Shown in pieces: positions 5,134-34,040 of a stretch of 64,000 nt of DNA; positions within the stretch are counted from its first letter, which is position 1, and each line of letters begins with the position of its first letter. A program made the translations under genes and the position numbers. A model generated the notes under the pieces. That model was not told where the DNA came from. It saw nothing but the letters and a program-made list of their open reading frames with translations, and did no database searches. The DNA is from Vulcanimicrobiota bacterium (GTDB lineage: Bacteria > Vulcanimicrobiota > JAJTBE01), in contig JAIORV010000162.1 in assembly GCA_021107945.1 (NCBI GenBank), forward strand, positions 7,999-71,998, given 5' to 3'.

Positions 5134-5568
5134 TTAAATGTCAAGGAGTTCTTTGATCCTCTCCGTCAGATCTTTCGGGTTGAAAGGCTTCGTAATGTAA
5201 TCATCCACACCCATGAGCCTGGCAAATTTTATATCTTCATATTCCACTTTCCCGGTTATAATAATTACCGGGATGTCACTGGTGCTTTCTTTCTCTTTAA
5301 GAGTAAGAAAAAACTCCAGCCCGTTGATTTCGGGCATCAAGATATCTGCAATCACAAGGTCGGGTTTTTCTCTGCTGATCATCTCAAGGGCTTCTTTTCC
5401 GTCTCCGGCGGTCATTACATCGAAATCATCCATTTCAAGGTTTAAACGAATAATCTTTCTGATGTGATATTCATCATCAATAACAAGAATTTTCTTTTTC
5501 AGGACTGCATCATTGCCTGTTTTTCGGGAATTTCCGGTCCCAAGTCCCGGTTTCAAATTGTCTTCCAT
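5134..5568 (-). CDS. Single-domain response regulator receiver (CheY-like)
   Basis: KKILVIDDEYHIRKII ... DLVIADILMPEINGLEF ... TGK. 144 aa with no output domain. Confidence 0.85.
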   Translation of the reverse strand: MEDNLKPGLGTGNSRKTGNDAVLKKKILVIDDEYHIRKIIRLNLEMDDFDVMTAGDGKEALEMISREKPDLVIADILMPEINGLEFFLTLKEKESTSDIPVIIITGKVEYEDIKFARLMGVDDYITKPFNPKDLTERIKELLDI

Positions 5569-5689
5569 TCAAACATTTCTCCTGAATATATTTACCAAAA
5601 AGCATACCGTATTTTTCTTCCTGAATTATTTATTACCTTCAATCAGTTTTACAACAATTTTACAAAACGGTTTTTTATGTATAATTATT

Positions 5690-6775
5690 ATGATGAATAA
5701 AGTTAATGATAATAAATGCGATAAATCATCGGAGAAGACCGGGAAGAAAAAAGAATTAAAACAAAAGGCGATAAAGATATTGCTCATATTATCAATCGCT
5801 TATTTTATTTTTCTTCTTTTTGTTCTTCTTATCGAATATGTGGTCGGCGAAACACATTGGGTGTTTATCTTGATTATATATTCACCCCAGGCTCTTTATG
5901 TTATTTTGCCCCTTATTTTTATATGCGTATCCTGCTTTTTTCGCAGCAAGGTAAATCTTCTTATTAATGTTTTCTCATTCTTGATAGTTATCTTTTTTTT
6001 GATGGGATTGAACATTCATATTAATCCTGATAATTCAAAAGACGGCAAGGTAAATAATCAATTAAAAGTCCTCACATACAACATACATTCCGGTACATAC
6101 GGCGCAAAAAAAGTGGCGGCATTTTTGAAGAAATCGGAAGCGGACCTGATTTTCCTCCAGGAAGCTCATCAGACCGCGAAAAAGACCAGGCCGGATCCGA
6201 TACCGGATATCCTGAATACTTTTCCTGGATGGTACCATATCAGGGGTGGAGAGAGAAAAGAGCTTATGATAATTTCCCGGTATCCCCTTGTGGATTTTGA
6301 GGAGAGAAAACTGGGGACATTCAGGAAATGCCTTATGGGATATATGATATGGAAAAACAAGAAAATCAGGGTCATTAATGTGCATTTTAATATCGCTCAT
6401 CCAGGCAAGAGCCTGATTCGAAGCGGCACGAATTTCAGGGAGTATCTCTATTATTCATCTATTGTCAGAATAAAGCAAGCTGAAGCACTGCGCGAAATAA
6501 TTAAAGATGAAAAAAATCCCATTCTACTCGTGGGTGATTTTAACGCGATTCCCAATACAAAAACACACAGGATTATAAACAGGAAGTTGACCGATTGCTT
6601 CGAAAAAGCCGGGAATGGAATTGGATATACATATAATTCAAGATTACCCATGTGGAGAATTGATTTTATTTTCGTGAGTGATGATTTCAGGGCGTTGAAT
6701 TGTAATAAGCTCCCGGTTCGCATATCGGATCATTTCCCGCTTGAGGCCTTGCTTGAGTTAGCAGGGAAGAAGTAG
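5690..6775 (+). CDS. Endonuclease/exonuclease/phosphatase (EEP) family protein with N-terminal multi-TM region
   Basis: EEP motifs LKVLTYNIHSG, LIFLQEAH, LLVGDFNA and SDHFPL. Several hydrophobic helices precede the domain. The track ORF begins at 5513 and overlaps the response regulator gene. An ATG pair at 5690 (MMNKVNDNK) is the more likely start. Confidence 0.7.
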   Translation: MMNKVNDNKCDKSSEKTGKKKELKQKAIKILLILSIAYFIFLLFVLLIEYVVGETHWVFILIIYSPQALYVILPLIFICVSCFFRSKVNLLINVFSFLIVIFFLMGLNIHINPDNSKDGKVNNQLKVLTYNIHSGTYGAKKVAAFLKKSEADLIFLQEAHQTAKKTRPDPIPDILNTFPGWYHIRGGERKELMIISRYPLVDFEERKLGTFRKCLMGYMIWKNKKIRVINVHFNIAHPGKSLIRSGTNFREYLYYSSIVRIKQAEALREIIKDEKNPILLVGDFNAIPNTKTHRIINRKLTDCFEKAGNGIGYTYNSRLPMWRIDFIFVSDDFRALNCNKLPVRISDHFPLEALLELAGKK

Positions 6776-10133: not shown

Positions 10134-11291
10134 ATGATCCATAAATCAACTAAACCTGAAACTAATCAAAACGATATAGCCAGGGTATCCGCCGGAACGG
10201 AGCGTGTCCTGGGATTGAGCAATATAAGAATGGAAGATCCTCCAACTTGCGCATATTTTATGATTGGTGAGAACTGCAAGGGCACATGTTTTTTCTGCGC
10301 CAGAAGAAGTGAAAGAGAAAATGAAAACATTGAAACATCACCCAATAATTCAACTTCAAAAAAGCGGGGATTCCTGTCCAGAGTGACCTGGAAACCATAC
10401 AATATTCATACGGTTCTGGAGAAAAACGCAGAGCAATTTGAAAATGGATCGATCAGGAGAACTTGCTTCCAGGTTGTCCGGGACACCGAAGCTTACAGAC
10501 AGACCCTTGAGGCGGTTAAGATGCTCAAGAAAAAATGTGATATTCCCGTATGTGTATCAATAAACGGAATATCCCCGGAGCAGTATGGCGAATTGTATGA
10601 GGCCGGGGTTGAGAGGATAGCGTTTTCGTTTGACGCCGCAACACCGGAATTATATGAGAAAATAAAAGGGAAGTCGTGGGATGAGGAATGGGAAATCTAC
10701 CTTGAAATAAACAGGCGCTTCCCCGGCAGGACGGTAATTCACCTGATAGTGGGACTAGGCGAGACCGAGAAGCAGATGGTAGGGGCGATTGAAACATTCT
10801 ATAGGCACAACTCGGAAGTCTCCCTGTTTGCATTCACGCCGATTCCCGGAACGCCGCTGTCAGGAAGAAAACAGCCTTCTCTTTCGACATACAGAAAGAT
10901 ACAAACCGCTCTTTATATGATAAGAACCGGCATGTGGCAATGTAGGAGGGACGTCCCCGTCCCGATAAACGGAGAATGGAAAACGGATGCCGGATGCCAG
11001 AGCTCACTTCCCGTTTCCCACTTCCCATTTCCCGCCTCCAGCATGTGGGACGTCCCCGTCCCGATGAAATGTAAAAATGAACTATATAAATTCGAAAACG
11101 ATAAAATTATATTTAATCGTGATAAAAGAGACTTCTTCATACAAAATATTCCACAGACCGCATTCCGCACATACGGATGCCCCGACTGTAACAGGCCTCT
11201 ATATAACGAAAGACCGGGGCAGGTTCCATATAATTTCCCCCGGGAGCTTACGGAGGAGGAGCGTATTTCTGCGATTGAGTTGATTTTTTGA
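10134..11291 (+). CDS. Radical SAM protein. The C-terminal third contains two in-frame copies of a dispersed palindromic repeat.
   Basis: CxxxCxxC cluster ENCKGTCFFCARR and a TIM-barrel-like core with GLGET. The translation reads through repeat copies at 10941-10970 and 11044-11069 (CRRDVPVPIN / MWDVPVPMKC). Confidence 0.65.
   Translation: MIHKSTKPETNQNDIARVSAGTERVLGLSNIRMEDPPTCAYFMIGENCKGTCFFCARRSERENENIETSPNNSTSKKRGFLSRVTWKPYNIHTVLEKNAEQFENGSIRRTCFQVVRDTEAYRQTLEAVKMLKKKCDIPVCVSINGISPEQYGELYEAGVERIAFSFDAATPELYEKIKGKSWDEEWEIYLEINRRFPGRTVIHLIVGLGETEKQMVGAIETFYRHNSEVSLFAFTPIPGTPLSGRKQPSLSTYRKIQTALYMIRTGMWQCRRDVPVPINGEWKTDAGCQSSLPVSHFPFPASSMWDVPVPMKCKNELYKFENDKIIFNRDKRDFFIQNIPQTAFRTYGCPDCNRPLYNERPGQVPYNFPRELTEEERISAIELIF
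10941..10970. repeat. REP-like palindromic element TGTAGGAGGGACGTCCCCGTCCCGATAAA, copy 1 (inside a CDS)
   Basis: The same 29-mer occurs at 33942-33970. The GGGACGTCCC core is a perfect palindrome. Confidence 0.8.
11044..11069. repeat. REP-like palindromic element, copy 2 (TGTGGGACGTCCCCGTCCCGATGAAA), inside a CDS
   Basis: Near-identical to copy 1, lying 99 bp (33 codons) downstream in the same frame. Confidence 0.75.
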
Positions 11292-11558
11292 TTATTCAAT
11301 GCAGAGGACGCAGAGAACGCGAAGGTTTTATATGATTTTCATATTATTTACCACAGAGTTCACAGAGGGCATATAGGTTAGAAGGAATCTATTTTATGAA
11401 TGCCACAAAATCCTCATCTTTGGCATCATAAAAGACCTTGATTTTATATTCAAATAGATTTCTAAATGTTGTACCTCCTGAGTATTGCAAGGAATTCTCC
11501 AATACTATAAGCTTTTTCTATAAAACATTGGTTCCTTTTTCATCAGATGATATCTACT

Positions 11559-11671
11559 CCGGGGCTGACTAAAAAGTTGTAATAGTCATCCTGAACTCGT
11601 TTCAGGATCTAATATTCAAACCGTTTGTCAGATCCCGAAACAAGTTCGGGATGACTTATCGAACAGCCCCG
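11559..11671. other. Nested double-palindrome structure in a convergent intergenic region (candidate bidirectional terminator, structured RNA or operator pair)
   Basis: Outer stem CCGGGGCTG / CAGCCCCG. Two inner 8-5-8 palindromes, ATCCTGAA-ctcgt-TTCAGGAT and ATCCCGAA-acaag-TTCGGGAT, are flanked by GTCAT / ATGAC. Confidence 0.4.
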
Positions 11672-11777
11672 AATTAAAGGGGGGGCGAATCCGGACAAAA
11701 CTTAACGAAAATAACCAATAAAACTTTGCCTTTCCTTCCCGTTTGGGTTGAATTACAGTCGATTCCCGGACAAAAAA

Positions 11778-14576
11778 TCACCTTGCCCCGTGCTTGCGGA
11801 GAAGGTTAACGATGTTGGTATTGCCATATTTTGCTGAATATTTCAGAGGCGTCATACCGTATTTGTCCTTCGCATTTACATCTGCGCCTTTGGATATAAG
11901 TAATTTGGCAGTTTCGGTTTTACCTTCAATTGCCGCCCAGTGCATAGGTGTCCATCCACGATTACTCTTTGCATTTATATCTGCGCCATTGGATATGAGG
12001 AGTTTGGCAGTGTCGGTTTTACCTTCAATTGCCGCCGTGTGCAGGGGTGTCAGTTCATAATTGTCCTTCGCATTTATATCTGCGCCCATGAATATAAGTA
12101 ATTTGGCAGTTTCGGTTTTACCTTCAATTGCCGCATGGTGCAAGGGTGTTCTACCATGTGAATCCTTCACTTTTATATTTGCTCTTTTTAGAAACAAAAA
12201 AGAAGCGAATATGACTGTTATCAATATAATAAAAGATAATGCCAGCAGACCCCAAGGGGACCTCTTACTACTCACCTTTTTGTCTAAATTTGTTCCCCCA
12301 AGAAGATTGACGATGTCGGCATAGCCCCCGGATTTTGCAAATTGTAGGGGCGTCTTTCCTGAATTATCCTTCGAGTCTATATCCGCTCCTTTAGATATTA
12401 AAAATCTGGCAGTGTCGGTTTTACCTTCAATTGCCGCCGTGTGCAGGGGTGTCAGTTCATAATTGTCCTTCGCATTTATATCTGCGCCCATGAATATAAG
12501 TAATTTGGCAGTTTCGGTTTTACCTTCAATTGCCGCATGGTGCAAGGGTGTTCTACCATGTGAATCCTTCACTTTTATATTTGCTCTTTTTAGAAACAAA
12601 AAAGAAGCGAATATGACTGTTATCAATATAATAAAAGATAATGCCAGCAGACCCCAAGGGGACCTCTTACTACTCACCTTTTTGTCTAAATTTGTTCCCC
12701 CAAGAAGATTGACGATGTCGGCATAGCCCCCGGATTTTGCAAATTGTAGGGGCGTCTTTCCTGAATTATCCTTCGAGTCTATATCCGCTCCTTTAGATAT
12801 TAAAAATCTGGCAGTGTCTGTTTTACCTTCTATTGCCGCTCGGTGCAGGGGTGTCCCGCCGTCATTGTCCTTCTCATTTATATTTGCGCCTTTTGATATG
12901 AGGAGCTTTGCGGTGTCGGTTTCACCATTCCTTGCCGCTTGGTGCAGGGATGTCCATCCGCTATTGTCCTTCTCATTAACATTCGCGCCCTTGGATATAA
13001 GGAGCTTGGTAATGTCGGTATTACCTTCTATCGCCGCACAGTACAGGGGTGTCTCATCGTTATTGTTCTTTGTATTCATATTTGCGCCTTTGGATATAAG
13101 GAGCTTGGCAGTGTCGGTTTTACCATAAAATGCCGCCTTATGCAGGGGTGTCTGGCCATAATTGTCCTTCGCATTTACATTTGCGCCATTCCCTATCAGG
13201 AATCTGGTGGTGAAGATTTTACCTTCAATTGCCGCATTGTGCAAGGATGTCCAACCCTTATTATCCTTCGCATTTACATCCGCCCCCTTGAATACTAAAA
13301 GACTGACTATCCTGAAGGCATCGGAATAGCACGACCCTGCTGCAATATGAAGAGGTGGCACGCCGTAATCGTCCTTCGCATTTACATCCGCGCCCTGGTT
13401 GATATGTTCCTTGACTTTTGCCATATTACCATACTTCACCGCCTTAAAAAAATCATTATATCTACCAAATGGTTTCTTAGGAAAATGTGAGGGAGATTGG
13501 GGAGCAGGAACATGGGCATGGGCAGGAGCAGGAACAGATGTATGTGTAAGCGTAGGCGTAGGTGTAGGTGTAGGTGCAGGATACCTCACGCCACTTGTCG
13601 GGTAGCCTGAGGCAACAGCCCCAGGTGGTTTTGAAATATGAGTGGGTGCAGGTGTAGATACAGTTCCAGGATACCGCCCACCACCTCCATCAAGTATCTC
13701 AATGATCATATCAATCGAACCGGGACGGTTGACGCTGGATATATCCACCATGGACATGATGAGATCGTCAAGAAATTCGGGAACATTATTATTTAAATTT
13801 CTCACCGATTCGAATGTAAAAAGAGGACGGGACGGGTCTTCGGGATTGAGACCGGTAAGGAGATAGTGAATCAGAACCCCCAGGGAAAAAATATCGTTCA
13901 GCGGGGAATCATTGCCACGGTACTGGTCAGGAGAAGCATAGCCCTGCGTTCCCAACATCGTGCCTTTTTGCAGGGGCTTCAATATCTTGGCAATTCCAAA
14001 ATCAATAAGATAGAGCTTACTGTCTTTTATCATTGTATTTGAAGGCTTCAGATCACGGTAAATAACAGGGGGATTCTGAGAATGCAGGTAAGAGAATATG
14101 TCGAGGATTTGCCGGAAATATCCCATAACCTCGTCAAGGGGAAGCGGTGGAATGTTCTGCCTCAGATAGCATTCCAGATCCATGCCTTCGATGAATGTCA
14201 TCACAAGGTAATGTGATGTTTTTCCGCCGGAATCTTTTTTGGTGAAATAATCCGTTACCTTGGGAAGTCCTCCGTGATGGAGCTTCGCCAGCAGTTTTGC
14301 TTCTCTCAGGAACATCTCCTGAAATTTCTTCCCATCTGCATCCAGGTTATAGGTCGCCTGCATTTTTTTAACGGCTACGGTCTCTCCCAGGCGTGTGTCA
14401 ACGGCTCGATAGATACAACCCATGTTCCCTGACTTTAACATGCTTTCCACCTGATATCTGTCGTCCAGAAGCTCAACTTTCCGGGTGGCTGACGGCGACA
14501 TATTCGCCCCGCATTCGTTGCAATACTTCGCTGATGATTTTTGTTTTTTTCCGCAGACAGGGCAGAAACGATCCAT
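11778..14576 (-). CDS. Zinc-ribbon / Ser-Thr protein kinase / ankyrin-repeat protein, paralog A (two TM helices from an internal duplication)
   Basis: N-terminal CPVCGKK...YCNECG zinc ribbon. Kinase motifs VAVKKM, YRDLKPSN, DFGIAK and GYASPDQ. PTPTPT linker, then about 17 ANK repeats (TPLHxAAxxGxxDxxKLLIxxGADVNAKD). A TM helix WGLLALSFIILITVIFASFLFL occurs twice. An ATG at 14576 matches the paralog starts (MDRFC); the track start at 14591 is a TTG. Confidence 0.85.
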   Translation of the reverse strand: MDRFCPVCGKKQKSSAKYCNECGANMSPSATRKVELLDDRYQVESMLKSGNMGCIYRAVDTRLGETVAVKKMQATYNLDADGKKFQEMFLREAKLLAKLHHGGLPKVTDYFTKKDSGGKTSHYLVMTFIEGMDLECYLRQNIPPLPLDEVMGYFRQILDIFSYLHSQNPPVIYRDLKPSNTMIKDSKLYLIDFGIAKILKPLQKGTMLGTQGYASPDQYRGNDSPLNDIFSLGVLIHYLLTGLNPEDPSRPLFTFESVRNLNNNVPEFLDDLIMSMVDISSVNRPGSIDMIIEILDGGGGRYPGTVSTPAPTHISKPPGAVASGYPTSGVRYPAPTPTPTPTLTHTSVPAPAHAHVPAPQSPSHFPKKPFGRYNDFFKAVKYGNMAKVKEHINQGADVNAKDDYGVPPLHIAAGSCYSDAFRIVSLLVFKGADVNAKDNKGWTSLHNAAIEGKIFTTRFLIGNGANVNAKDNYGQTPLHKAAFYGKTDTAKLLISKGANMNTKNNNDETPLYCAAIEGNTDITKLLISKGANVNEKDNSGWTSLHQAARNGETDTAKLLISKGANINEKDNDGGTPLHRAAIEGKTDTARFLISKGADIDSKDNSGKTPLQFAKSGGYADIVNLLGGTNLDKKVSSKRSPWGLLALSFIILITVIFASFLFLKRANIKVKDSHGRTPLHHAAIEGKTETAKLLIFMGADINAKDNYELTPLHTAAIEGKTDTARFLISKGADIDSKDNSGKTPLQFAKSGGYADIVNLLGGTNLDKKVSSKRSPWGLLALSFIILITVIFASFLFLKRANIKVKDSHGRTPLHHAAIEGKTETAKLLIFMGADINAKDNYELTPLHTAAIEGKTDTAKLLISNGADINAKSNRGWTPMHWAAIEGKTETAKLLISKGADVNAKDKYGMTPLKYSAKYGNTNIVNLLRKHGAR
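12035..12838. repeat. Perfect 402-bp direct tandem duplication inside kinase paralog A
   Basis: Plus-strand track ORFs 12061-12324 and 12463-12726 have identical translations. The minus-strand protein repeats a 134-aa block (ANK, TM helix, 2 ANK) twice without any change. Confidence 0.85.
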
Positions 14577-14652
14577 TAAGTGTTCCCCCAAAAGAAAATT
14601 ATGGTACTATTCGGACATCTCTTGTAGTAAAAAACTATTCAATCCCGATTTC
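14577..14652 (-). promoter_or_regulatory. Conserved about 80-bp leader/promoter block shared by the three kinase paralogs (copy A)
   Basis: CCAAAAGAAAATTATGGTACTATTCGGACATCTCTTGTAGTAAAAAACTATTCAATCCCGATTTCAT aligns with 18168-18250 and 20716-20800. On the coding strand it contains TTGAATAG and CATAAT boxes and a GGGGGA RBS. Confidence 0.45.
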
Positions 14653-14712
14653 ATGCCGTTTCCCGGCGGGTCGGGAGACCCGCCGCTACCCAAATAGGGG
14701 ACGGGTCTGAAT
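14653..14712. ncRNA. About 60-nt conserved hairpin element (candidate small RNA or MITE), copy 1
   Basis: ATGCCGTTTCC-CGGCGGGTC-GGGA-GACCCGCCG-CTACCCAAATAGGGG. The reverse complement of 26281-26340 carries the same element with two compensatory base-pair changes in the 9-bp stem. Confidence 0.4.
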
Positions 14713-15194
14713 GATTATCCTTTTTATGCCCATTTTTATGACATTAATTATACTTCTGTCACTATAACATTACAGTCTTGATTATATCGTTCTATTCCAA
14801 CGGAATATGCCCTTCCTTATTAAAAAGATCCCTTGCAATCTGTAATTCTGAGTGGACTACGAAAGAATTGCTCTAATCCGATGACTTGCTCAAAGACGTG
14901 ATTATATTGATGCTTGTGATTTACAAAGCGAAGAATCCCTCGAATGTTGGCTTGAGATATCACGCAACATGTGTGATGACAGCGTGGACGACTCTCTTGC
15001 GGGAGATCATTCGCTGTGAAAGACATCGGAGGTAAGTAATACCATTTTGGATTCAAATTTGCCGCATGGGCAGAAAGCCGGTAGCTTCGGCGTCCCCGCC
15101 GGAGAAAGTATTGCGCCGAGGGCGGTTGTCCTCGGTTACACGGACTGAATGTATGCAAAATCTTTCAACGATCAGATTTTCAGGATCTGTTTTA

Positions 15195-18167
15195 TTATTC
15201 TCTCGCCCCTTGTTTGCGGAGAAGATTGACTGTGTCGGTATGTCCATTTAGTAAAGCTTCGCGCAGGGGTGTCCTGTCGTTATTGTTTTTCATGTTTACT
15301 TTTGCTCCTTTGGATATAAGGAGCAAAACGATCTCTGTATGATCATCCTGTGCCGCAAAGTGCAGGGGTGTATCTCCGTTTTTGTCCTTTGCTCTTACAT
15401 CTCCTCTCTTGGATATAAGGAGTTTGGCGGTGTCTGTATGGCCAAAAAATGCCGTGTTATGCAGGGGTGTATCTCCGTTATTGTCCTTTGCGCTTACATC
15501 TCCCCCATTGGATATAATGAGCCTGGCAGTGTCGGTATGACCAAAAAATGCCGTTTTGTGCAGGGGCGTATTTCCGTTGTTGTCCTTTGCGCTGACATCT
15601 CCTCCGCTGGATATAATGAGCTTGGCAGTGTCGGTATGTCCATCCGATGCCGCACTGTGCAGGGGTGTCTTTCCATCATTGTCCTTCGCATTCACATTTG
15701 TGCCTTTGGAGATGAGAAGCTCAACGAAGCCGGTGTGCCCTTTTGATGAAGCGTAATGAAGGGTTGTTCTTCCGTCATTATCCTTTGCATTCACATCTGC
15801 ACCTTTGGATATAAGGAGTTTAGCAGTGTCGGTTTTACCTCCAATTGCTGCTTGGTGTAAGGGTGTTCTACCAAGTGAATCCCTGGCATTTATATTTGTT
15901 TTTTTCAATTTAAGATATGGCAAAAGGGCAAAAGCAGTGAATATTAATGCTATAACGGCAAAACAAATTATCACACCCCGGAAAACCCCCTTTTTTCTTA
16001 TTGTCCCACCTTCAGCTGCCCCCTCGGATATGAGGAGTTTGGCGGTGTTGCTATATCCATTATTCATTGCGTAGTATATGGGTGTCTTGCCTAAATTATC
16101 CTTTACATTTACATCTGCACCTTTGGATAAAAGGAGTTTGACAGTGTCGCTTTTATCTTCACTTGCTGCAAAGTGCAGAGGAGTCCGTCCATCGTTGTCT
16201 TTAGCGCCTATATCCGCTTCCTTGGATAAAAGGAGTTTGGCAGTATCGGTATGGCCAAGAAATACCGTTTTATGCAGGGGCGTATCTCCGTTATTGTCCC
16301 TTGCATTTGTATCTGATCCCTTGGCTATAAGGAGCCTGGCGGTATAGACGTGACCATAAAGTGCCGCATAATGCAGAGGTGTTCGTTCATTATTATCTTG
16401 CACATTTACTCTTGCTCCTTTGGACATAAGGAGCCTGGAGGCGTGTGTGTGACCATAAAGTGCAGCAAAGTGCAGAGGTGTCCGTTCACTATTGTCTTTC
16501 ACATCTATTATTGCTTCTTTGGATATAAGGAGCTGGGCAGTGTCGGTCCTGCCTTCAATTGCCGCTCTGTGCAGGGGTGTCTTTCCATCATGGTCCTCCA
16601 TATTCACATCTGCGCCTTTGGATATAAGGAATCTGGAAATGTCGATGCGGTCTTCTATTGCCACTTTGTGCAGGGGAGTACGTCCCAAATTATCTTTAGT
16701 ATTTACATTTGCGCCACTTTGCACAAGGAGTTCAACGATGTCTATATCGCCGTTGAATGCGGCATAGTGCAGGGGTGCTAAATGGTCATTATTCTTCGTA
16801 TTCACTTTTGCCCCCATGGATATAAGGAGTTTGGCAATGCTGAGATGGCTTTCTATTGCCGCTTTGTGTAAGGGTGTACGTCCAAAATTGTCCTTAACAT
16901 TTACATTTGCACCATTGGAAATAAGGAGTTTGGCGGTGTCGGTATGGCCTTCATACATCGCCCAGTGCAAGGGTGTACATCCGTCATTATCCCGCGCATT
17001 TACATTGGCCCCCTGTTTTATATATTCTTTGACCTGGGCAGTCTTGTGAACCATCGCCGCTGAAAAAAAATCATCATACTTATCAAATTTCTTCCTGGGA
17101 TAACCGGGAGGAGGCGAGGGATCCGGAACAGGTGGTGTGGGTTCAGGTTCAGGTGCAGGTGCAGGCTCAGGAGTGGACGTTGGTGTAGCTTCAGGTGTTG
17201 GCGCAGGCTCTTGGGCGGGAGTTGGTGTAGGTTCAGATATTGGCACGGAATCATTTGTTGGGTCCTGCTGTTTGCTTCCATTCAGTATCTCAATGATTTT
17301 ATCAACCGACTCGGGACGGTTGGCGCAGGTTAAATCCACCATGGACATAATAAGATTATCGAGAAATTCGGGAACATTTTCATTGAAGTCTCTCACCTGT
17401 TCGAATGTAAAAAGAGGGCGGGATGGGTCTTCCGGATCAAGCCCGGTAAGGAGAAAATGTATCAAACCTCCCAGGGAGAAAATGTCGTTTTGGGTGCTAT
17501 CATTGCCCCGCAACTGATCGGGAGAAGCATAACCCGGAGTACCTAACATCGTACCTTTTTCTTGGGGTTTAAATATTTTGGCAATTCCAAAATCGACAAA
17601 ATAGAGCTTGCCGTCATTGATTATGATATTTGAAGGCTTTAGATCACGGTAAATAACAGGAGGGTTTTGAGAATGCAGGTAAGATAATATTTCGAGAACT
17701 TGTCGGAAATACCCCATAACTTCATCAATAGGAAGCGGTGGAAGATTTTGTTCCAGATAGCACCCCAGATTCATTCCTTCGATGAATGTCATAACAAGGT
17801 AATGTGATGTTTTTCCGTCGGGATCCTTTTGGGAGAAAAAATTCGTTACTTTGGGAAGGCCTTCATGATGGAGTTTTATCAAAAGTTTTGCTTCCCTCAG
17901 GAACATCTCTTGAAATTTCATCCCGCCTGTGCCCCGACTAAAAGTCACCTGCATTTTCTTGACGGCTACAGTCTCTCCCAGGCGTGTATCAACAGCTCGA
18001 TAGACACAACCCATATTGCCCGACTTTACAATGCATTCAACCTTATATCGGTTGTCCAGAAGCTCAACTTCCCCGGCAGCTTCCGGTGATATATTCGCTC
18101 CGCATTCGTTGCAATATTTCGCCGATGCTTCTTGCTTTTTTCCGCAGACAGTGCAGAAACGATGCAT
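15195..18167 (-). CDS. Zinc-ribbon / Ser-Thr protein kinase / ankyrin-repeat protein, paralog B (one TM helix inside the ankyrin array)
   Basis: MHRFCTVCGKK...YCNECG. Same kinase motifs as paralog A. PEPTPAP linker. About 10 ANK repeats, the TM helix GVIICFAVIALIFTAFALLPYL, then about 7 more ANK repeats. Confidence 0.85.
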   Translation of the reverse strand: MHRFCTVCGKKQEASAKYCNECGANISPEAAGEVELLDNRYKVECIVKSGNMGCVYRAVDTRLGETVAVKKMQVTFSRGTGGMKFQEMFLREAKLLIKLHHEGLPKVTNFFSQKDPDGKTSHYLVMTFIEGMNLGCYLEQNLPPLPIDEVMGYFRQVLEILSYLHSQNPPVIYRDLKPSNIIINDGKLYFVDFGIAKIFKPQEKGTMLGTPGYASPDQLRGNDSTQNDIFSLGGLIHFLLTGLDPEDPSRPLFTFEQVRDFNENVPEFLDNLIMSMVDLTCANRPESVDKIIEILNGSKQQDPTNDSVPISEPTPTPAQEPAPTPEATPTSTPEPAPAPEPEPTPPVPDPSPPPGYPRKKFDKYDDFFSAAMVHKTAQVKEYIKQGANVNARDNDGCTPLHWAMYEGHTDTAKLLISNGANVNVKDNFGRTPLHKAAIESHLSIAKLLISMGAKVNTKNNDHLAPLHYAAFNGDIDIVELLVQSGANVNTKDNLGRTPLHKVAIEDRIDISRFLISKGADVNMEDHDGKTPLHRAAIEGRTDTAQLLISKEAIIDVKDNSERTPLHFAALYGHTHASRLLMSKGARVNVQDNNERTPLHYAALYGHVYTARLLIAKGSDTNARDNNGDTPLHKTVFLGHTDTAKLLLSKEADIGAKDNDGRTPLHFAASEDKSDTVKLLLSKGADVNVKDNLGKTPIYYAMNNGYSNTAKLLISEGAAEGGTIRKKGVFRGVIICFAVIALIFTAFALLPYLKLKKTNINARDSLGRTPLHQAAIGGKTDTAKLLISKGADVNAKDNDGRTTLHYASSKGHTGFVELLISKGTNVNAKDNDGKTPLHSAASDGHTDTAKLIISSGGDVSAKDNNGNTPLHKTAFFGHTDTARLIISNGGDVSAKDNNGDTPLHNTAFFGHTDTAKLLISKRGDVRAKDKNGDTPLHFAAQDDHTEIVLLLISKGAKVNMKNNNDRTPLREALLNGHTDTVNLLRKQGARE

Positions 18168-18250
18168 TAAGACTCCTCCAAAAAATTTGATACTATTCGG
18201 ATATCTCTTTTGATAAAAAACTATTCAATCTCGATTTCATGCCGTTTACG
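18168..18250 (-). promoter_or_regulatory. Conserved leader/promoter block, copy B
   Basis: Aligns with 14577-14652 and 20716-20800. A GGAGGA RBS lies 8 nt upstream of the ATG. Confidence 0.45.
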
Positions 18251-18417
18251 GGTCAATCAGAAGACCGGCATTCATGTTCGGTTAAGGTGTTTTCTGATAG
18301 TATTTACCTGGTAGAGGTTGGCTCCTGAGCAACTTGACAGGGTCATGAAACTGTCAAAACGCCTTAAACACGACGGGCCTCCCGATCCGTCATTGCCCAA
18401 TAAAAGTTCTATTTTAT

Positions 18418-20715
18418 TCAATTTAACGATCCAGGACTTGGCTGAAATTTTTTCTCAGACACCAATCGCTTTACTCCGTTCTTATGAAGAAAGGAAGCTA
18501 TATGGGTATGCCCATTCGATGTAGCATATTGCCGGGGTGTCCAGCCCCTGACGTCTTCCGCATTTACATTTGCGCCTTTGGATACAAGGAGTTTGGCCGT
18601 GTCTTTATGTCCATCCGATGCCGCACCGTGCAGAGGTGTCCATCCATCATTGTCCTTCGCATTCACATTTGCCCCCCTGGATATCAGGAGCTCGATGATG
18701 TCTGTGTGTTCTTTGGATTCCGCCAGGTGCAGAGATACCCAGCCGTTATTTTCCTTCGCATTCACATTTGCTCCCCTGGATATAAGGAGCTTGATGACGT
18801 CGATATGTCCATATCTTGCGGCATAGTGCAGAGGTGTCCAGCCTCTGTTCTCCTTCGCATTCACATTTACACCCTTGGATATAAGGAGCCTGACGACGTC
18901 GATATGTCCATATCTTACCGCATAGTGTAGAAGTGTCCAGCCTTTATTATCCTTAACATTTATATCTGCTCCATTTGACATGAGAAATCTGACGATCTCG
19001 GTATTACCTTGATTTGACGCAAAATGAAGGGGTGTCCATCCGTCATTGTCCTTCGCATTTATATTTGCCCCCCTGGATATAAGGAGCTCGACGATATCGC
19101 TGTGTCCTTTGGATTCCGCCAGATGCAGAGGTGTCCAGTTGCTATTTTCCCTCGCATTCACATTTGCCCCCCTGGATATAAGGGACTTGACGACTTCGAT
19201 ATGTCCATATCTTGCCGCATAGTGCAGAGGTGTCCAGTTGCTGTTTTCCTTCGTATTCACATTTGCACTCTTGGATACAAGGAGCTTGACGATGTCGGCA
19301 TGTCCATATCTTGCGGCATAGTGCAGGGGTGTCCATCCGCTATTTTCCTTTGCGTTTACAAGTGCGTTTTTGGATGTGAGGAGTTTGACGATGTCGGTAT
19401 GGCCTTCTTTAGCCGCTCTATGCAGAAGTGTTCTTCCGTTATTATCCTTTGTGTTTACATACGCGCCCTCGGAGATGAGGAGCCTGACGATGTTTGTATG
19501 TCCATTGAATGTAGCATATTGCAGGGGTGTTACGTTTTTGCTGTCCTTTGCATTTACATCTGCCCCCTGGTTGATATATTCTTCAACTGTCATAATTCTA
19601 TCATTCTTAACCGCCTTGAAAAAATCATCATATCTATCGAACTGCCTTTTAATCAACTGATTCTTGGGAAAATATGAAGGGCCTGATGGGGCGGGATCAT
19701 ATGAAGAAGACAAAGCAGGTTTAGTTGCATTTGCAGGAGATTGCCTGTCACTTGTCAGGTGGCTTGGAGTATTAATCACCGGCGGTTTTGAAACAAGAGA
19801 AGATGCAGAATGCCGTCCTTCACTTCCATCGAGTATCTTAATGATCTGATCAATCGAACCGGGACGGTTGACATTGGACATTTCCACCATGGATAGGATG
19901 AGATTGTCGAGAAATTCGGGAATGTCCTTGTTGGAATTTCTTACCGGTTCGAATGTAAAAAGAGGACGGGATGAGTCTTCGGGATTGAGTCCGGAAAGAA
20001 GGTAATGAATCAGAACTCCAAGCGAATAAATATCGTTTTGCGGGGAATCATTGCCCCGGCATTGGTCAGGAGAAGCATAGCCCCGCGTTCCCCACATTGT
20101 GCCTTTTTGCAGGGGTTTCAATATTTTGGCAATTCCAAAATCAACAAGAAGGAGCCTGCCGTTATTAAACATGATATTTGAAGGCTTCAGATCGCGATAG
20201 ACAACGGGAGGGTTCTGAGAATGCAGGTAAGAAAATATGTCGAGAATCTGCCGGAAAAATCCTATAACTTCATCAAGAGGAAGCGGTGGAATGTTCTTCC
20301 TTAGATAGCATTCCAGATCCACGCCTTCGATGAATGTCATCACAAGGTAATGTGATGTTCTTCCGACGGGATCCTCTTTGGTGAAAAAATCTGTTACCTT
20401 GGGAAGTCCTCCGTGATGGAGCTTCGCCAATAGTTTTGCCTCTCTCAGAAACATTTCCTGAAATTTATTCCCGTCTGTGTCGAAATTATAAGTCGCCTGC
20501 ATTTTTTTGACGGCCACGGTCTCTCCTAGGCGTGTGTCAACGGCCCGATAGACACAGCCCATGTTCCCCGACTTTAATATTCTTTCCACCCTATATCGGT
20601 TGTCCAGAAGTTCAACTTGCCGGGTAATTCCCGGCGACATTTTCGCTCCGCATTGGTTGCAATATTTAGTTTTTGATTTTTGATTTCTTCCGCAGATAGT
20701 GCAGTAATGATCCAT
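18418..20715 (-). CDS. Zinc-ribbon / Ser-Thr protein kinase / ankyrin-repeat protein, paralog C (soluble, no TM helix)
   Basis: MDHYCTICGRN...YCNQCG. Kinase motifs conserved. S/P-rich linker followed by about 11 ANK repeats. Confidence 0.85.
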   Translation of the reverse strand: MDHYCTICGRNQKSKTKYCNQCGAKMSPGITRQVELLDNRYRVERILKSGNMGCVYRAVDTRLGETVAVKKMQATYNFDTDGNKFQEMFLREAKLLAKLHHGGLPKVTDFFTKEDPVGRTSHYLVMTFIEGVDLECYLRKNIPPLPLDEVIGFFRQILDIFSYLHSQNPPVVYRDLKPSNIMFNNGRLLLVDFGIAKILKPLQKGTMWGTRGYASPDQCRGNDSPQNDIYSLGVLIHYLLSGLNPEDSSRPLFTFEPVRNSNKDIPEFLDNLILSMVEMSNVNRPGSIDQIIKILDGSEGRHSASSLVSKPPVINTPSHLTSDRQSPANATKPALSSSYDPAPSGPSYFPKNQLIKRQFDRYDDFFKAVKNDRIMTVEEYINQGADVNAKDSKNVTPLQYATFNGHTNIVRLLISEGAYVNTKDNNGRTLLHRAAKEGHTDIVKLLTSKNALVNAKENSGWTPLHYAARYGHADIVKLLVSKSANVNTKENSNWTPLHYAARYGHIEVVKSLISRGANVNARENSNWTPLHLAESKGHSDIVELLISRGANINAKDNDGWTPLHFASNQGNTEIVRFLMSNGADINVKDNKGWTLLHYAVRYGHIDVVRLLISKGVNVNAKENRGWTPLHYAARYGHIDVIKLLISRGANVNAKENNGWVSLHLAESKEHTDIIELLISRGANVNAKDNDGWTPLHGAASDGHKDTAKLLVSKGANVNAEDVRGWTPRQYATSNGHTHIASFLHKNGVKRLVSEKKFQPSPGSLN

Positions 20716-31959: not shown

Positions 31960-33939
31960 ATGAGTAAGTTAAAAAAAGAATTCAAATTGATTGACGTCTT
32001 TGCCATTTCAACCGGGGCGATGATCAGCTCAGGCTTATTTGTGCTTCCCGGCATGGCGTATTCCGTAGCAGGGCCTGCAATGATATTGGCATATCTTGTA
32101 GCGGGATTAATGTATATCCCTGCAATGCTCAGTTATGCCGAGCTTTCAACGGCAATGCCGCGCTCCGGAGGCAGCTACTTTTTCGTGGATAGAAGCATGG
32201 GACCGATCCCCGGAACAATTGGCGGGATGTCTGAGTGGTTATCCCTTATTTTGAAAAGCTCATTTGCACTAATTGGAATTGGCGCATTTGCCACAATATT
32301 CTTTCCCGGAATGGCGGAGATACACATTAAGCTTATTGCAACAGCTTTTTGTGTGTTTTTTGTGATACTCAATATCCATGGCGTAAAAGAGGCAGGCAAG
32401 TTACAAGTTGCCCTTGTTATAGGACTTATCGTTATTCTTGTCCTGTATGTAGTTGAGGGATTCTCTAAGCTGGACCCAATGAATTTCTCTCCGTTCATGC
32501 CCCAGGGCAAACTCTCAATCCTTTCAGCCGCAGGACTGGTGTATATTTCATTTGCAGGACTTACCAAAGTTGTGAATATGGGTGAGGAGATAAAAAACCC
32601 GGGACGAAATATTCCTCTGGGCATGGCATTGGCATTTATAACGGTTATTATAATATATGTATTAGTTACCATTGTAACTGTGGGAATTGTGCCCGGCAGC
32701 GAGTTGTCAGGTAATCTTGCCCCCCTTGCTCTGGGAGGCAAAAAAATGATGGGAACTTTCGGAGAGATCCTCATCACGGTTGCCGCCCTGTTTGCATTTG
32801 CAACAACAGCAAACGCAGGCATTATGGCCGCTTCAAGGACGCCGGTCTCTATGAGCAGGGACGGCCATTTACCCACGTTTTTACACAAAATCCATCCAAA
32901 ATATCACACTCCCCGTAATGCAATACTTCTTACCGGGACAATCATGATAGCATTTATACTTCTACTGGATATCCGGACATTTGTAAAAACAGCTTCAGTC
33001 GTCATGCTCATTCTTCTTACAATGATATGTATTGCTGTTATCGTGATGAGAGAGAGTAAACTCTATAATTATAAGCCCATATTTCGCTCACCCTTTTATC
33101 CGTATGTTCAGATAATAGGAATCCTCGCGTATTCTTACCTTCTTCTCACAATCGGTGTGAAGCCGCTGGTAATGACGGCAATTCTTTTATTCGCAGGCTT
33201 TATCTGGTACTGGATTTATGCCAGGATCCGGATAAACAGGGAATCCGCCCTTGTACACGTGATAGAAAGGTTCATGGATACAAAGTATGACAGAGACCTG
33301 GCTCAGGAAAAGCTCGCCACGGAATTGAAAGAAATCGTCAAGGAGCGAGACGAGGTGGTAGAAGATCTGCTTGACAGGCTTGTGACAAATGCAACGGCCA
33401 TTGAGCTTGAAGATGGTATTACGAGAGATGAATTCTTCAAACTTGTATCGGAGCAATTCGCCGATAGATACCAGATTGAAGCTCGGGAGTTATTTGAACA
33501 TCTGCAAAAAAGAGAAGCGGAGTCAACATCCGAGATTTTACCGGGACTTGCCATTCCTCATATTATTATCGACGGGAAATGTGAATTTTCATTGCTAATG
33601 GCTCGAAGTAAGGAAGGAATTGATTTCTCACCGGGAATGAAACCCGCACATGCCATATTTGTCTTTATCGGGACAAAGGAAATGAGGTCCCTGTATCTCA
33701 GATCCCTTGTTGCGATAACTGAAATTGCTCAGCAAAAGGATTTCGAAGAATTCTGGAGGAACGCAAGAGATGAGGAGGAGCTTCGTAATATTATATTAAT
33801 GGGAGAGAGAAAGAGGGTCCACATGATAAACTGCCTGCATTGCCCCGAGGACGCTCTTTTTGAAGAAAAGAAATACTGCCCCATATACTATGATGAAGAA
33901 GGAAAGGTCAATAGAGGGAAAGGGGAAACGGGAAGTTGA
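31960..33939 (+). CDS. APC-superfamily amino acid permease with a roughly 220-aa cytoplasmic C-terminal domain
   Basis: 12 predicted TM helices (GAMISSGLFVLPG...). The soluble C-terminal region is acidic. Confidence 0.8.
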   Translation: MSKLKKEFKLIDVFAISTGAMISSGLFVLPGMAYSVAGPAMILAYLVAGLMYIPAMLSYAELSTAMPRSGGSYFFVDRSMGPIPGTIGGMSEWLSLILKSSFALIGIGAFATIFFPGMAEIHIKLIATAFCVFFVILNIHGVKEAGKLQVALVIGLIVILVLYVVEGFSKLDPMNFSPFMPQGKLSILSAAGLVYISFAGLTKVVNMGEEIKNPGRNIPLGMALAFITVIIIYVLVTIVTVGIVPGSELSGNLAPLALGGKKMMGTFGEILITVAALFAFATTANAGIMAASRTPVSMSRDGHLPTFLHKIHPKYHTPRNAILLTGTIMIAFILLLDIRTFVKTASVVMLILLTMICIAVIVMRESKLYNYKPIFRSPFYPYVQIIGILAYSYLLLTIGVKPLVMTAILLFAGFIWYWIYARIRINRESALVHVIERFMDTKYDRDLAQEKLATELKEIVKERDEVVEDLLDRLVTNATAIELEDGITRDEFFKLVSEQFADRYQIEARELFEHLQKREAESTSEILPGLAIPHIIIDGKCEFSLLMARSKEGIDFSPGMKPAHAIFVFIGTKEMRSLYLRSLVAITEIAQQKDFEEFWRNARDEEELRNIILMGERKRVHMINCLHCPEDALFEEKKYCPIYYDEEGKVNRGKGETGS

Positions 33940-33941
33940 TT

Positions 33942-34040
33942 TGTAGGAGGGACGTCCCCGTCCCGATAAATGGAAAATGGAAAATGGATGTTGGAAAATG
34001 GATGACGGATAACGGCTCTCGTTTCCCACGTCCCGGCTAA
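33942..34040. repeat. REP-like element, copy 3, plus an adjacent GGAAAATGGA microsatellite, in a convergent intergenic region
   Basis: TGTAGGAGGGACGTCCCCGTCCCGATAAA is identical to 10941-10969. It is followed by TGGAAAATGGAAAATGGATG... and GTTTCCCACGTCCCGG, which resembles 10996-11030. Confidence 0.8.

What the first reader, a model, noticed from the sequence alone, without database searches (positions are those of the whole stretch)
12035..12838. Perfect 402-bp tandem duplication inside kinase paralog A, duplicating a TM helix and three ankyrin repeats
A 134-codon block (ANK, TM helix WGLLALSFIILITVIFASFLFL, two ANK) is repeated twice with 100% identity. The plus-strand ORFs 12061-12324 and 12463-12726 have identical translations. 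The result is a predicted protein with two TM helices. Zero divergence means one of three things: a very recent duplication, ongoing repeat expansion and contraction (a contingency locus), or an assembly collapse or expansion artefact.
Basis: seen in the sequence. Interest (0 to 1): 0.6.

Follow-up and report, generated by a model that had tools for sequence, protein, structure and literature searches.

The report
Fresh in-frame duplication in ankyrin kinase gene
A bacterial membrane kinase gene made largely of ankyrin repeats carries a perfect, in-frame, back-to-back copy of a 402-base block, which gives the protein a second membrane-spanning helix; this is the ordinary way repeat genes grow, seen just after it happened, and the copy number has not been checked against reads.

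Summary
Bases 12005-12406 and 12407-12808 are identical, and the match runs 10 bp further, to 12818.

The protein is: zinc ribbon, Hanks-type Ser/Thr kinase, proline-rich linker, ankyrin array, then two copies of a block (cap ankyrin, TM helix, two ankyrins), then four ankyrins. Paralog B and the closest homologue P0003 each carry this TM module once, so two copies is the derived state.

The junction lies in a 10-bp identical stretch (TGGCAGTGTC) shared by two ankyrin-coding units 402 bp apart. This is the signature of unequal recombination or replication slippage. The two parental sites share at most 13 identical bases, too few to create a false loop in a de Bruijn graph. Two non-identical assemblies both show two copies. 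A k-mer artefact is therefore unlikely.

Two copies is also the minimal path through such a loop. The true copy number and any mixture of alleles remain unknown at about 9x coverage. No sibling allele was found in any collection, and nothing supports a contingency locus.

Verdict: real, recent and mechanistically ordinary. It is a modestly interesting snapshot of a topology-changing internal duplication.

The parts
11778..14576 (-). Kinase paralog A, 932 aa (NCBI MCD4785694.1): zinc ribbon, Hanks-type Ser/Thr kinase, Pro-rich linker and ankyrin arrays interrupted by two TM helices
   Evidence: ORF. Pfam hits Pkinase, Ank and Zn_Ribbon_1. Motifs CxxC..CxxC, VAVK, YRDLKPSN, DFG and SPD. Exact protein on record on two contigs.
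12005..12406 (-). Repeat copy 1 (C-proximal in the protein, about residues 722-855)
   Evidence: Identical to 12407-12808.
12407..12808 (-). Repeat copy 2 (N-proximal in the protein, about residues 588-721)
   Evidence: Identical to 12005-12406.
12809..12818 (.). 10-bp microhomology TGGCAGTGTC, also at 12005-12014 and 12407-12416; the crossover lies somewhere within it
   Evidence: Three boundaries aligned in register. The surrounding 33 bp is 29/33 identical between the parental units, and the longest exact match between the parental sites is 13 bp.
12591..12656 (-). TM helix 1 (residues 641-662)
   Evidence: Kyte-Doolittle mean 2.83. AF2 models a single 28-residue helix at fragment residues 81-108. 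Coordinates.
12189..12254 (-). TM helix 2 (residues 775-796), identical to helix 1
12294..12590 (-). Three-ankyrin array between the two TM helices. Its middle repeat is an in-register hybrid formed at the junction.
   Evidence: AF2 models three helix pairs with pLDDT about 80-90. Protein sequence.
11781..12188 (-). C-terminal four-ankyrin array with a capping repeat
   Evidence: AF2 pLDDT 90-96. Pfam Ank.
13692..14456 (-). Protein kinase domain
   Evidence: Pfam PF00069, 120 bits against a cut-off of 31.7. Catalytic motifs present.
12061..12324 (+).
   Evidence: Listed mechanically. It lies opposite a strongly supported minus-strand ankyrin frame.
15780..16100 (-). The single homologous TM module of paralog B (cap ankyrin, basic cluster, TM, basic cluster, ankyrin), used as the outgroup state
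   Evidence: Colinear with A's module and 48-54% identical. B has one TM helix.

Best explanation
This is a genuine and very recent in-frame tandem duplication of a 402-bp (134-codon) block. It lies inside the ankyrin-repeat region of a membrane-anchored Hanks-type Ser/Thr kinase gene in an uncultured bacterium that NCBI labels Candidatus Eremiobacteraeota.

Origin (inferred from the junction). Two ankyrin-coding units lying 402 bp apart (three 99-bp units plus the 105-bp TM unit) misaligned during replication or sister-chromatid exchange. The strands crossed within a 10-bp identical stretch, TGGCAGTGTC, set in a 29/33-identical block. Ankyrin units are in codon register, so the product stays in frame and the hybrid repeat at the junction is intact.

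Consequence (inferred). The ancestral protein had a cytoplasmic kinase with about 7 ankyrins, one TM helix, and four ankyrins on the far side of the membrane. This is the same layout as PknB-type receptor kinases. The duplicated form has two TM helices. If both insert, a three-ankyrin loop is outside and the terminal four-ankyrin array returns to the cytoplasm.

Stability (established knowledge). Perfect direct repeats of 402 bp are recombination substrates. The locus should therefore shed or gain copies at an appreciable rate, and the population may be mixed. Nothing indicates that this variation is used by the cell.
For: The array is perfect: 412 consecutive period-402 matches against 66-82% identity for the other ankyrin units.

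The junction anatomy shows microhomology at all three boundaries.

The frame is preserved and the ORF is intact.

The parental sites share at most 13 identical bases, so junction k-mers for k>=21 cannot arise from repeat similarity and must come from reads (plus reasoning about de Bruijn graphs).

The same 932-aa product is on record on two contigs of different length, 85,996 and 89,738 bp. The ENA contig differs from the window by 5 substitutions elsewhere yet has the identical 412-bp run.

One TM module is the ancestral state. Paralog B has one, colinear and 48% identical. The closest homologue P0003 has one, with a nearly identical helix: LLALSFFILISLIFASFMF against LLALSFIILITVIFASFLF. Paralog C has none.

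AF2 models three well-formed ankyrin arrays separated by two isolated 28-residue helices.

Recent block duplications that include non-ankyrin linkers occur in other ankyrin proteins: P0059 (91/92 identical), P0046 and P0006. Tandem duplication of single or multiple ankyrin repeats is documented in Wolbachia WD0766 (PMC3287509).
Against: No reads could be inspected. Coverage is low (SPAdes cov 8.9).

Two copies is exactly the minimal traversal of a loop in an assembly graph, so the count is not measured.

I could not show that the two assemblies come from independent read sets.

No sibling genome with one copy, or with any other number, was found.

The topology cannot be called from charge bias. 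Both flanks of the helix are equally basic: 4 K/R and 1 D/E before it, 5 K/R and 1 D/E after it.

The TM call rests on hydropathy and an AF2 helix only.
Confidence: 0.65

Rival explanations
1. Assembly artefact or wrong copy number. The genome would really carry one copy, or some number other than two. The junction would come from chimeric reads (template switching between similar ankyrin units during library PCR). Alternatively it would come from mixing two strains, one of which has a gene-conversion tract that makes the unit at 12809 look like the unit at 12005. The assembler would then thread the resulting loop twice.
For: The source is a short-read metagenome assembly at about 9x (SPAdes-style name NODE_12_length_85996_cov_8.93). 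The unit (402 bp) is longer than any k and probably longer than the reads. The junction sits where template switching would also occur. Strain-level variants exist in the population (5 substitutions at 5477-5740). The k=31 Logan assemblies of two runs do not contain gene A whole.
Against: The parental sites share at most 13 identical bases, so there are no shared k-mers for k>=21. Two contigs that differ in length and sequence both give the identical structure. Low-coverage chimeric edges are normally removed by assemblers, and assemblers usually collapse rather than expand repeats (general knowledge). The failure of Logan to assemble gene A is expected anyway, because a 43-bp repeat at 11894-11936 recurs inside the unit.
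Confidence: 0.2
2. An old duplication kept identical by gene conversion (concerted evolution). The two-TM architecture would then be long-standing and functional, and its copies continually homogenised.
For: Zero divergence is also what frequent conversion between tandem copies would give. The ORF is intact. The TM helix sequence is conserved among paralogues, which suggests that it matters.
Against: Identity falls from 100% to about 68% at sharply defined boundaries. No other ankyrin units in the gene are homogenised (median 66%). B and P0003 carry one module and C none. No two-module relative appeared among 50 kinase-ankyrin homologues.
Confidence: 0.08
3. A contingency locus. Copy number of the TM-containing block would vary at high frequency and be selected. 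Odd and even copy numbers would place the terminal ankyrin array on opposite sides of the membrane.
For: Perfect 402-bp direct repeats are inherently unstable (general knowledge). Each unit carries exactly one TM helix, so the parity of copy number would flip the predicted location of the C-terminal array (inference). The gene sits in a cluster of three fast-diverging paralogues.
Against: There are only two copies. The two available assemblies agree on the number. No variant alleles turned up in any collection. Known contingency loci use short tracts that shift frame or promoter spacing, or many-copy arrays. No comparable perfect repeats occur in paralogues B or C or elsewhere in the window.
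Confidence: 0.05

Closest known systems
Ankyrin-repeat number variation in Wolbachia ANK genes (e.g. WD0766; Riegler et al. 2012, PMC3287509)
   Same: In both, ankyrin arrays in a bacterial gene change length by lineage-specific tandem duplication of single or multiple repeats. In both, the proteins also carry TM domains, and presence or absence of TM domains varies between strains.
   Different: In Wolbachia the TM domains lie at the C-terminus, outside the duplicated units, and the copies have diverged. Here the duplicated unit itself contains the TM helix, the copies are identical, and the protein is a Ser/Thr kinase.
PknB/Stk1-type bacterial receptor Ser/Thr kinases (Hanks kinase, one TM helix, extracellular repeats)
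   Same: Both have an N-terminal cytoplasmic Hanks-type kinase, one TM helix (in the inferred ancestral form here) and a C-terminal repeat array beyond it. The kinase domain is recognisably related: NCBIfam PknB_PASTA_kin gives 153 bits.
   Different: That score is far below the family cut-off of 450 bits. The repeats are ankyrin, not PASTA. About 7 ankyrins also precede the TM helix. An N-terminal zinc ribbon is present. The gene is not a member of that family.
Long identical in-frame tandem repeats in surface proteins (alpha C protein, Rib and Bap type; from my own knowledge, not tested here)
   Same: Both involve perfect repeats hundreds of bp long inside a coding region. These can expand or contract by recombination without breaking the frame.
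   Different: Those arrays have many copies, are extracellular, and vary demonstrably among isolates. Here there are two copies, no observed variation, and a TM helix inside the unit.
Internal duplication as a route of membrane-protein topology evolution (general literature on duplicated TM segments; from my own knowledge)
   Same: In both, duplication of a block containing an odd number of TM helices changes the number of spans and the side on which downstream domains lie.
   Different: Documented cases are ancient and diverged, and are inferred from sequence or structural symmetry. This one would be at zero divergence.
PD-T4-6 anti-phage Ser/Thr kinases (PADLOC models)
   Same: The kinase domains of A, B and C match PD-T4-6 profiles (E 1e-47 to 1e-51, nearly the full profile length for PDLC04042).
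   Different: The match covers only a generic Hanks kinase domain. PADLOC models have no curated cut-off. The ankyrin and TM architecture is not that of PD-T4-6. No defence role is shown.

Membership tests
Intragenic tandem (segmental) duplication | Two head-to-tail copies with no spacer, more alike than background repeats | tested here: met
   12005-12406 equals 12407-12808, with 0 differences. Other ankyrin units are at most 82% identical.
Intragenic tandem (segmental) duplication | Junction explained by homology or microhomology between the parental end points | tested here: met
   The 10-bp TGGCAGTGTC is present at all three boundaries, within a 29/33-identical block.
Intragenic tandem (segmental) duplication | Copy number verified in the DNA molecule (spanning reads or PCR) | not testable with these tools
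   There is no read access. The only support is two assembled contigs that agree.
Hanks-type Ser/Thr protein kinase (Pfam PF00069) | Domain score above the gathering threshold, with catalytic Lys, the HRD-type catalytic loop and DFG | tested here: met
   120.3 bits against a cut-off of 31.7. VAVK at residue 67, YRDLKPSN at 173, DFG at 192.
Ankyrin-repeat protein (Pfam PF00023/PF12796) | Multiple 33-residue helix-turn-helix repeats | tested here: met
   Ank scores 376 bits over 11 stretches. The DNA periodicity is 99 bp. AF2 models paired helices with pLDDT 80-96.
PknB/Stk1 PASTA receptor kinase (NCBIfam NF033483) | Whole-protein score above the curated cut-off, with PASTA repeats | tested here: not met
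   153 bits against a cut-off of 450, covering the kinase domain only, with no PASTA hit.
Contingency (phase-variable) locus | Different repeat numbers among siblings, samples or reads | tested here: inconclusive
   The two assemblies both show 2 copies. No other allele was found in any collection. Reads are unavailable.
Contingency (phase-variable) locus | A change in copy number switches expression or frame (short tracts), or the array has many copies | tested here: not met
   The unit is 402 bp (134 codons), always in frame, with two copies only.
De Bruijn-graph repeat artefact | The parental sites share an exact stretch of at least k-1 bases that could create a false loop | tested here: not met
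   The longest exact match between the two parental regions is 13 bp.
Bitopic or polytopic membrane protein | A hydrophobic helix of about 20 residues, and experimentally or algorithmically assigned topology | tested here: inconclusive
   The helix is clear: Kyte-Doolittle mean 2.83 and an AF2 28-residue helix. Orientation is unresolved because both flanks are equally basic. No dedicated topology predictor was available.

The most novel reading that the evidence does not exclude
The TM-containing 402-bp block would be a recombination-driven topology switch. Populations would cycle between odd and even copy numbers, moving the C-terminal four-ankyrin array between the outside and the cytoplasm and so changing what the kinase senses or binds. 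That would be a contingency mechanism acting on membrane topology rather than on expression.
Probability: 0.04. Interest if true: 0.7.

Novelty: new member of a known kind. Interest (0 to 1): 0.3.

Why it matters
If the reads confirm it, this is a rare zero-divergence snapshot of how repeat proteins and membrane topologies evolve. A single misaligned recombination between ankyrin units adds a TM helix. It probably also moves a whole domain across the membrane without breaking the reading frame.

It is also a practical warning for MAG users. The copy number of perfect repeats longer than the read length is a guess by the assembler. Here that guess decides whether the predicted protein has one or two TM helices.

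It does not change what is known about kinases, ankyrin repeats or repeat instability.

Tried and rejected
1. Sibling alleles among proteins. The full-length search gave no relative above 63% identity. A search with a reconstructed single-copy C-terminus was swamped by generic ankyrin proteins. A 65-aa TM-module query found no indexed words, not even the protein itself.

2. DNA and peptide scans. An exact TM-coding 36-mer was absent from genome contigs and metagenome contigs. Peptide-pattern scans of both collections returned only distant ankyrin genes, at most 52% identity on the best segment.

3. Logan contigs of runs SRR15668619 and SRR32473240. They carry the same strain, 100% identical over 4-7 kb. 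Gene A is not assembled whole there. Its internal fragments cannot be looked up because they lack a stop codon. The neighbouring radical-SAM gene is also absent from Logan as a whole product.

4. A profile search with the A+B TM module against 1.84 billion representatives. The listed best 150 hits were large multi-repeat ankyrin proteins, mostly over 1,000 aa, and it was uninformative.

5. A locus look-up for P0003 found nothing on record.

6. A literature search for the run and assembly accessions returned nothing.

7. Promoter and terminator scans of 11250-15250 were at chance level. I therefore found no case for a plus-strand function of the shadow ORFs.

8. PADLOC and NCBIfam gave only domain-level kinase and ankyrin matches, all NCBIfam scores below cut-off. 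I rejected filing the gene under a defence system or under Legionella Ank effectors.
Full report
**Observation.** Comparing the window with itself at an offset of 402 gives one unbroken run of matches for positions 12005-12416. So 12005-12406 and 12407-12808 are identical, and the identity continues for 10 more bases, to 12818, before the first difference (G at 12417 against T at 12819). Tandem Repeats Finder reports the same array: period 402, 2.2 copies. Its two halves differ at two positions.

The real gene runs on the minus strand, 11778-14576 (ATG start; a TTG five codons upstream is also open). It encodes 932 aa with strong Pfam hits: Ank (E 2e-117), Pkinase (E 1e-34, 120 bits against a 31.7 cut-off) and a sub-threshold zinc ribbon (21.1 bits against a cut-off of 25).

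The identity is far beyond chance. The other 99-bp ankyrin-coding units of this gene are a median 66% and at most 82% identical to one another. At 82% identity, 412 consecutive matches have a probability of about 1e-35. Nothing comparable exists elsewhere in the window. In 118 other ankyrin-containing loci (0.94 Mb) the longest perfect tandem run is 150 bp. Short-read assemblies tend to break at such repeats, however, so that comparison is biased.

**Anatomy.** The protein contains, in order:
- a CxxC..CxxC zinc ribbon;
- a Hanks-type kinase with VAVK, YRDLKPSN, DFG and SPD motifs;
- a proline-rich linker;
- about seven ankyrin repeats ending in a cap-like repeat;
- a basic stretch, the hydrophobic helix WGLLALSFIILITVIFASFLFL, and another basic stretch;
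- two ankyrins, then the whole 134-residue block again;
- four more ankyrins ending in a cap.

The unit occupies residues 588-721 and 722-855. The helices are at 641-662 and 775-796, with a Kyte-Doolittle 19-residue mean of 2.83.

An AlphaFold2 single-sequence model of residues 560-932 has a mean pLDDT of 82.5. It shows three well-formed ankyrin arrays (pLDDT 80-96). They are separated by two isolated 28-residue helices, each preceded by a low-confidence linker.

The TM unit sits in ankyrin register. It is a 35-codon unit, and its end, FLFLKRANIKVKD, aligns with the ankyrin consensus KLLISKGANINAKD. That is why the period is 3x99+105 = 402.

**Which state is ancestral.**
- The neighbouring paralogue B (15195-18167, 990 aa) has exactly one such module, colinear with A's and 48% identical.
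- The closest homologue in the databases is P0003, which carries the same NCBI taxon label. It is 63% identical overall and about 85% in the kinase region. It also has one module, with a nearly identical helix.
- Paralogue C (18418-20715) has none.
- Among 50 kinase-ankyrin homologues, most have no TM helix. Some have one directly after the kinase. None has a duplicated mid-array module.

One module is therefore ancestral, and the second copy in A is derived.

**How it arose.** I aligned the three boundaries in register. The left flank of copy 1 (...GATATGAGGAGTT) and the shared right end of the unit (...GATATTAAAAATC) both run into TGGCAGTGTC. After it, copies 1 and 2 continue GGTTTTACCTTCAATTGCC, while the sequence beyond copy 2 continues TGTTTTACCTTCTATTGCC. 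The exchange point therefore lies inside a 10-bp identical stretch, within a 33-bp window that is 29/33 identical between two ankyrin units 402 bp apart.

This is the classic signature of misaligned recombination or replication slippage between homeologous repeats. That reading is an inference from the anatomy. Because the units are in codon register, the product is automatically in frame, so the intact ORF says nothing about selection.

**Real or artefact.** The exact 932-aa product is recorded as NCBI MCD4785694.1, from a MAG labelled Candidatus Eremiobacteraeota bacterium. It is on two contigs of different length, 85,996 bp (ENA ERZ26872897, NODE_12, cov 8.9) and 89,738 bp. The ENA contig differs from the window at five positions, all at 5477-5740, and contains the identical 412-bp run. 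So two non-identical assemblies agree.

The two parental sites share at most 13 identical bases. For any k of 21 or more, the k-mers spanning the unit-to-unit junction cannot have been generated by repeat similarity. They must have been present in reads.

Three cautions remain. First, a graph with such a loop is traversed minimally as exactly two copies, whatever the true number, and a mixture with one-copy genomes would give the same graph. Second, at about 9x coverage with short reads, the count can only come from depth, which I cannot see. Third, I could not establish that the two assemblies use independent reads. Chimeric junction reads, or a strain mixture with a conversion tract, remain possible but contrived.

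**Search for siblings.** All of these searches were negative:
- three protein searches;
- exact-DNA scans of species-representative genomes and JGI metagenomes;
- peptide-pattern scans of the same two collections;
- a profile search against 1.84 billion representatives.

The same strain is present at 100% identity in Logan assemblies of two runs, SRR15668619 and SRR32473240. Gene A is fragmented there, as expected at k=31. A 43-bp repeat (11894-11936, recurring inside the unit) breaks it regardless of the duplication. The fragments cannot be retrieved by exact-product look-up.

**Consequences (inferred).** There is no signal peptide and the kinase needs ATP, so the N-terminal part is cytoplasmic. 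In the one-module ancestor the last four ankyrins would lie beyond the membrane, as in PknB-type receptor kinases. With two helices, a three-ankyrin loop would be outside and the terminal array would return to the cytoplasm.

Charge bias does not help. Both flanks are equally basic, with 4 K/R and 1 D/E before the helix and 5 K/R and 1 D/E after it, in A and in B. Whether the two-helix protein works is unknown.

From general knowledge of recombination between direct repeats, perfect 402-bp repeats are unstable, so some heterogeneity in copy number is expected. That does not make the gene a contingency locus. There are only two copies, no observed variation, and no effect on frame or expression.

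**Comparison with what is known.**
- Growth of ankyrin arrays by tandem duplication of one or several repeats, and variation in TM domains between strains, is documented for Wolbachia ANK genes such as WD0766 (PMC3287509).
- Near-perfect block duplications that include non-ankyrin linkers occur in other proteins of my hit set: P0059 (91/92 identical), P0046 and P0006.
- The one less usual aspect is that the duplicated block carries a TM helix and is still at zero divergence.
- The gene is not a PknB/PASTA kinase (153 bits against a 450 cut-off) and not a Legionella Ank effector (all scores below cut-off).
- Its matches to PADLOC PD-T4-6 are generic kinase-domain matches.

**Verdict.** The most likely explanation is a genuine, very recent unequal-recombination duplication (confidence about 0.65). 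The rivals are an assembly or copy-number error (about 0.2), an old duplication homogenised by conversion (about 0.08) and a contingency locus (about 0.05). This is a new instance of a well-known process. Interest is modest (0.3), mainly as a zero-divergence example of a topology-changing internal duplication and as a caution about repeat copy numbers in MAGs.

Noticed in passing
window 11570-11672: A 25-nt inverted pair, GTCATCCYGAACTYGTTTCRGGATC (11585-11609 on +, 11631-11655 on -), forms a long hairpin with MFE -57.2 kcal/mol and z -8.9. It lies between the convergent radical-SAM gene and kinase A. It is probably a bidirectional terminator or a small palindromic element.
   Followed up: partly
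window 5477-5740: The only differences between the window and the ENA contig over 22.8 kb are five substitutions, all transversions, at 5477, 5599, 5670, 5725 and 5740. They cluster in the divergent region between a response-regulator gene and an Exo_endo_phos gene. Both Logan runs carry the window's variant.
   Followed up: partly
window 11778-20715: Three tandem paralogues (A, B, C) encode zinc ribbon, Ser/Thr kinase, Pro-rich linker and ankyrin arrays, with 2, 1 and 0 TM helices. The kinase parts are 76-86% identical at the DNA level while the ankyrin arrays differ in length. The architecture is common in hits labelled Xenobiia, Vulcanimicrobiota or Eremiobacteraeota. The kinase domains match PADLOC PD-T4-6 profiles at domain level only.
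   Followed up: partly
window 12591-12656 and 15780-16100; P0003 residues 388-409: The TM helix sits in ankyrin register, as a 35- or 40-codon unit in place of a 33-codon repeat. Its sequence is conserved between A and P0003 at 15 of 19 residues. This suggests a sequence-specific role beyond anchoring, and possibly an origin from an ankyrin unit.
   Followed up: partly
window 14595-14683 and 18181-18269: An 89-nt leader or promoter-proximal segment is conserved (81%) upstream of kinases A and B.
   Followed up: no
window 10924-10994 and 33925-33995: A 71-nt dispersed repeat (83% identical) contains GGGACGTCCCCGTCCC. The first copy lies inside the 3' part of the radical-SAM ORF, next to a 14-bp tandem repeat at 11005-11033.
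   Followed up: no
window 14979 (ends of L002 and L003): Logan contigs from two different runs both stop at exactly this position in the A-B intergenic region, although nothing in the window repeats there. It may mark a repeat located elsewhere in the genome or a population variant.
   Followed up: no
P0059, P0046, P0006, P0038 (database proteins): Other ankyrin proteins contain long perfect or near-perfect internal block duplications whose periods are not multiples of 33 (92, 187, 131 and 204 aa). These blocks include non-ankyrin linkers, so recent module-level duplication is recurrent in this protein class.
   Followed up: partly
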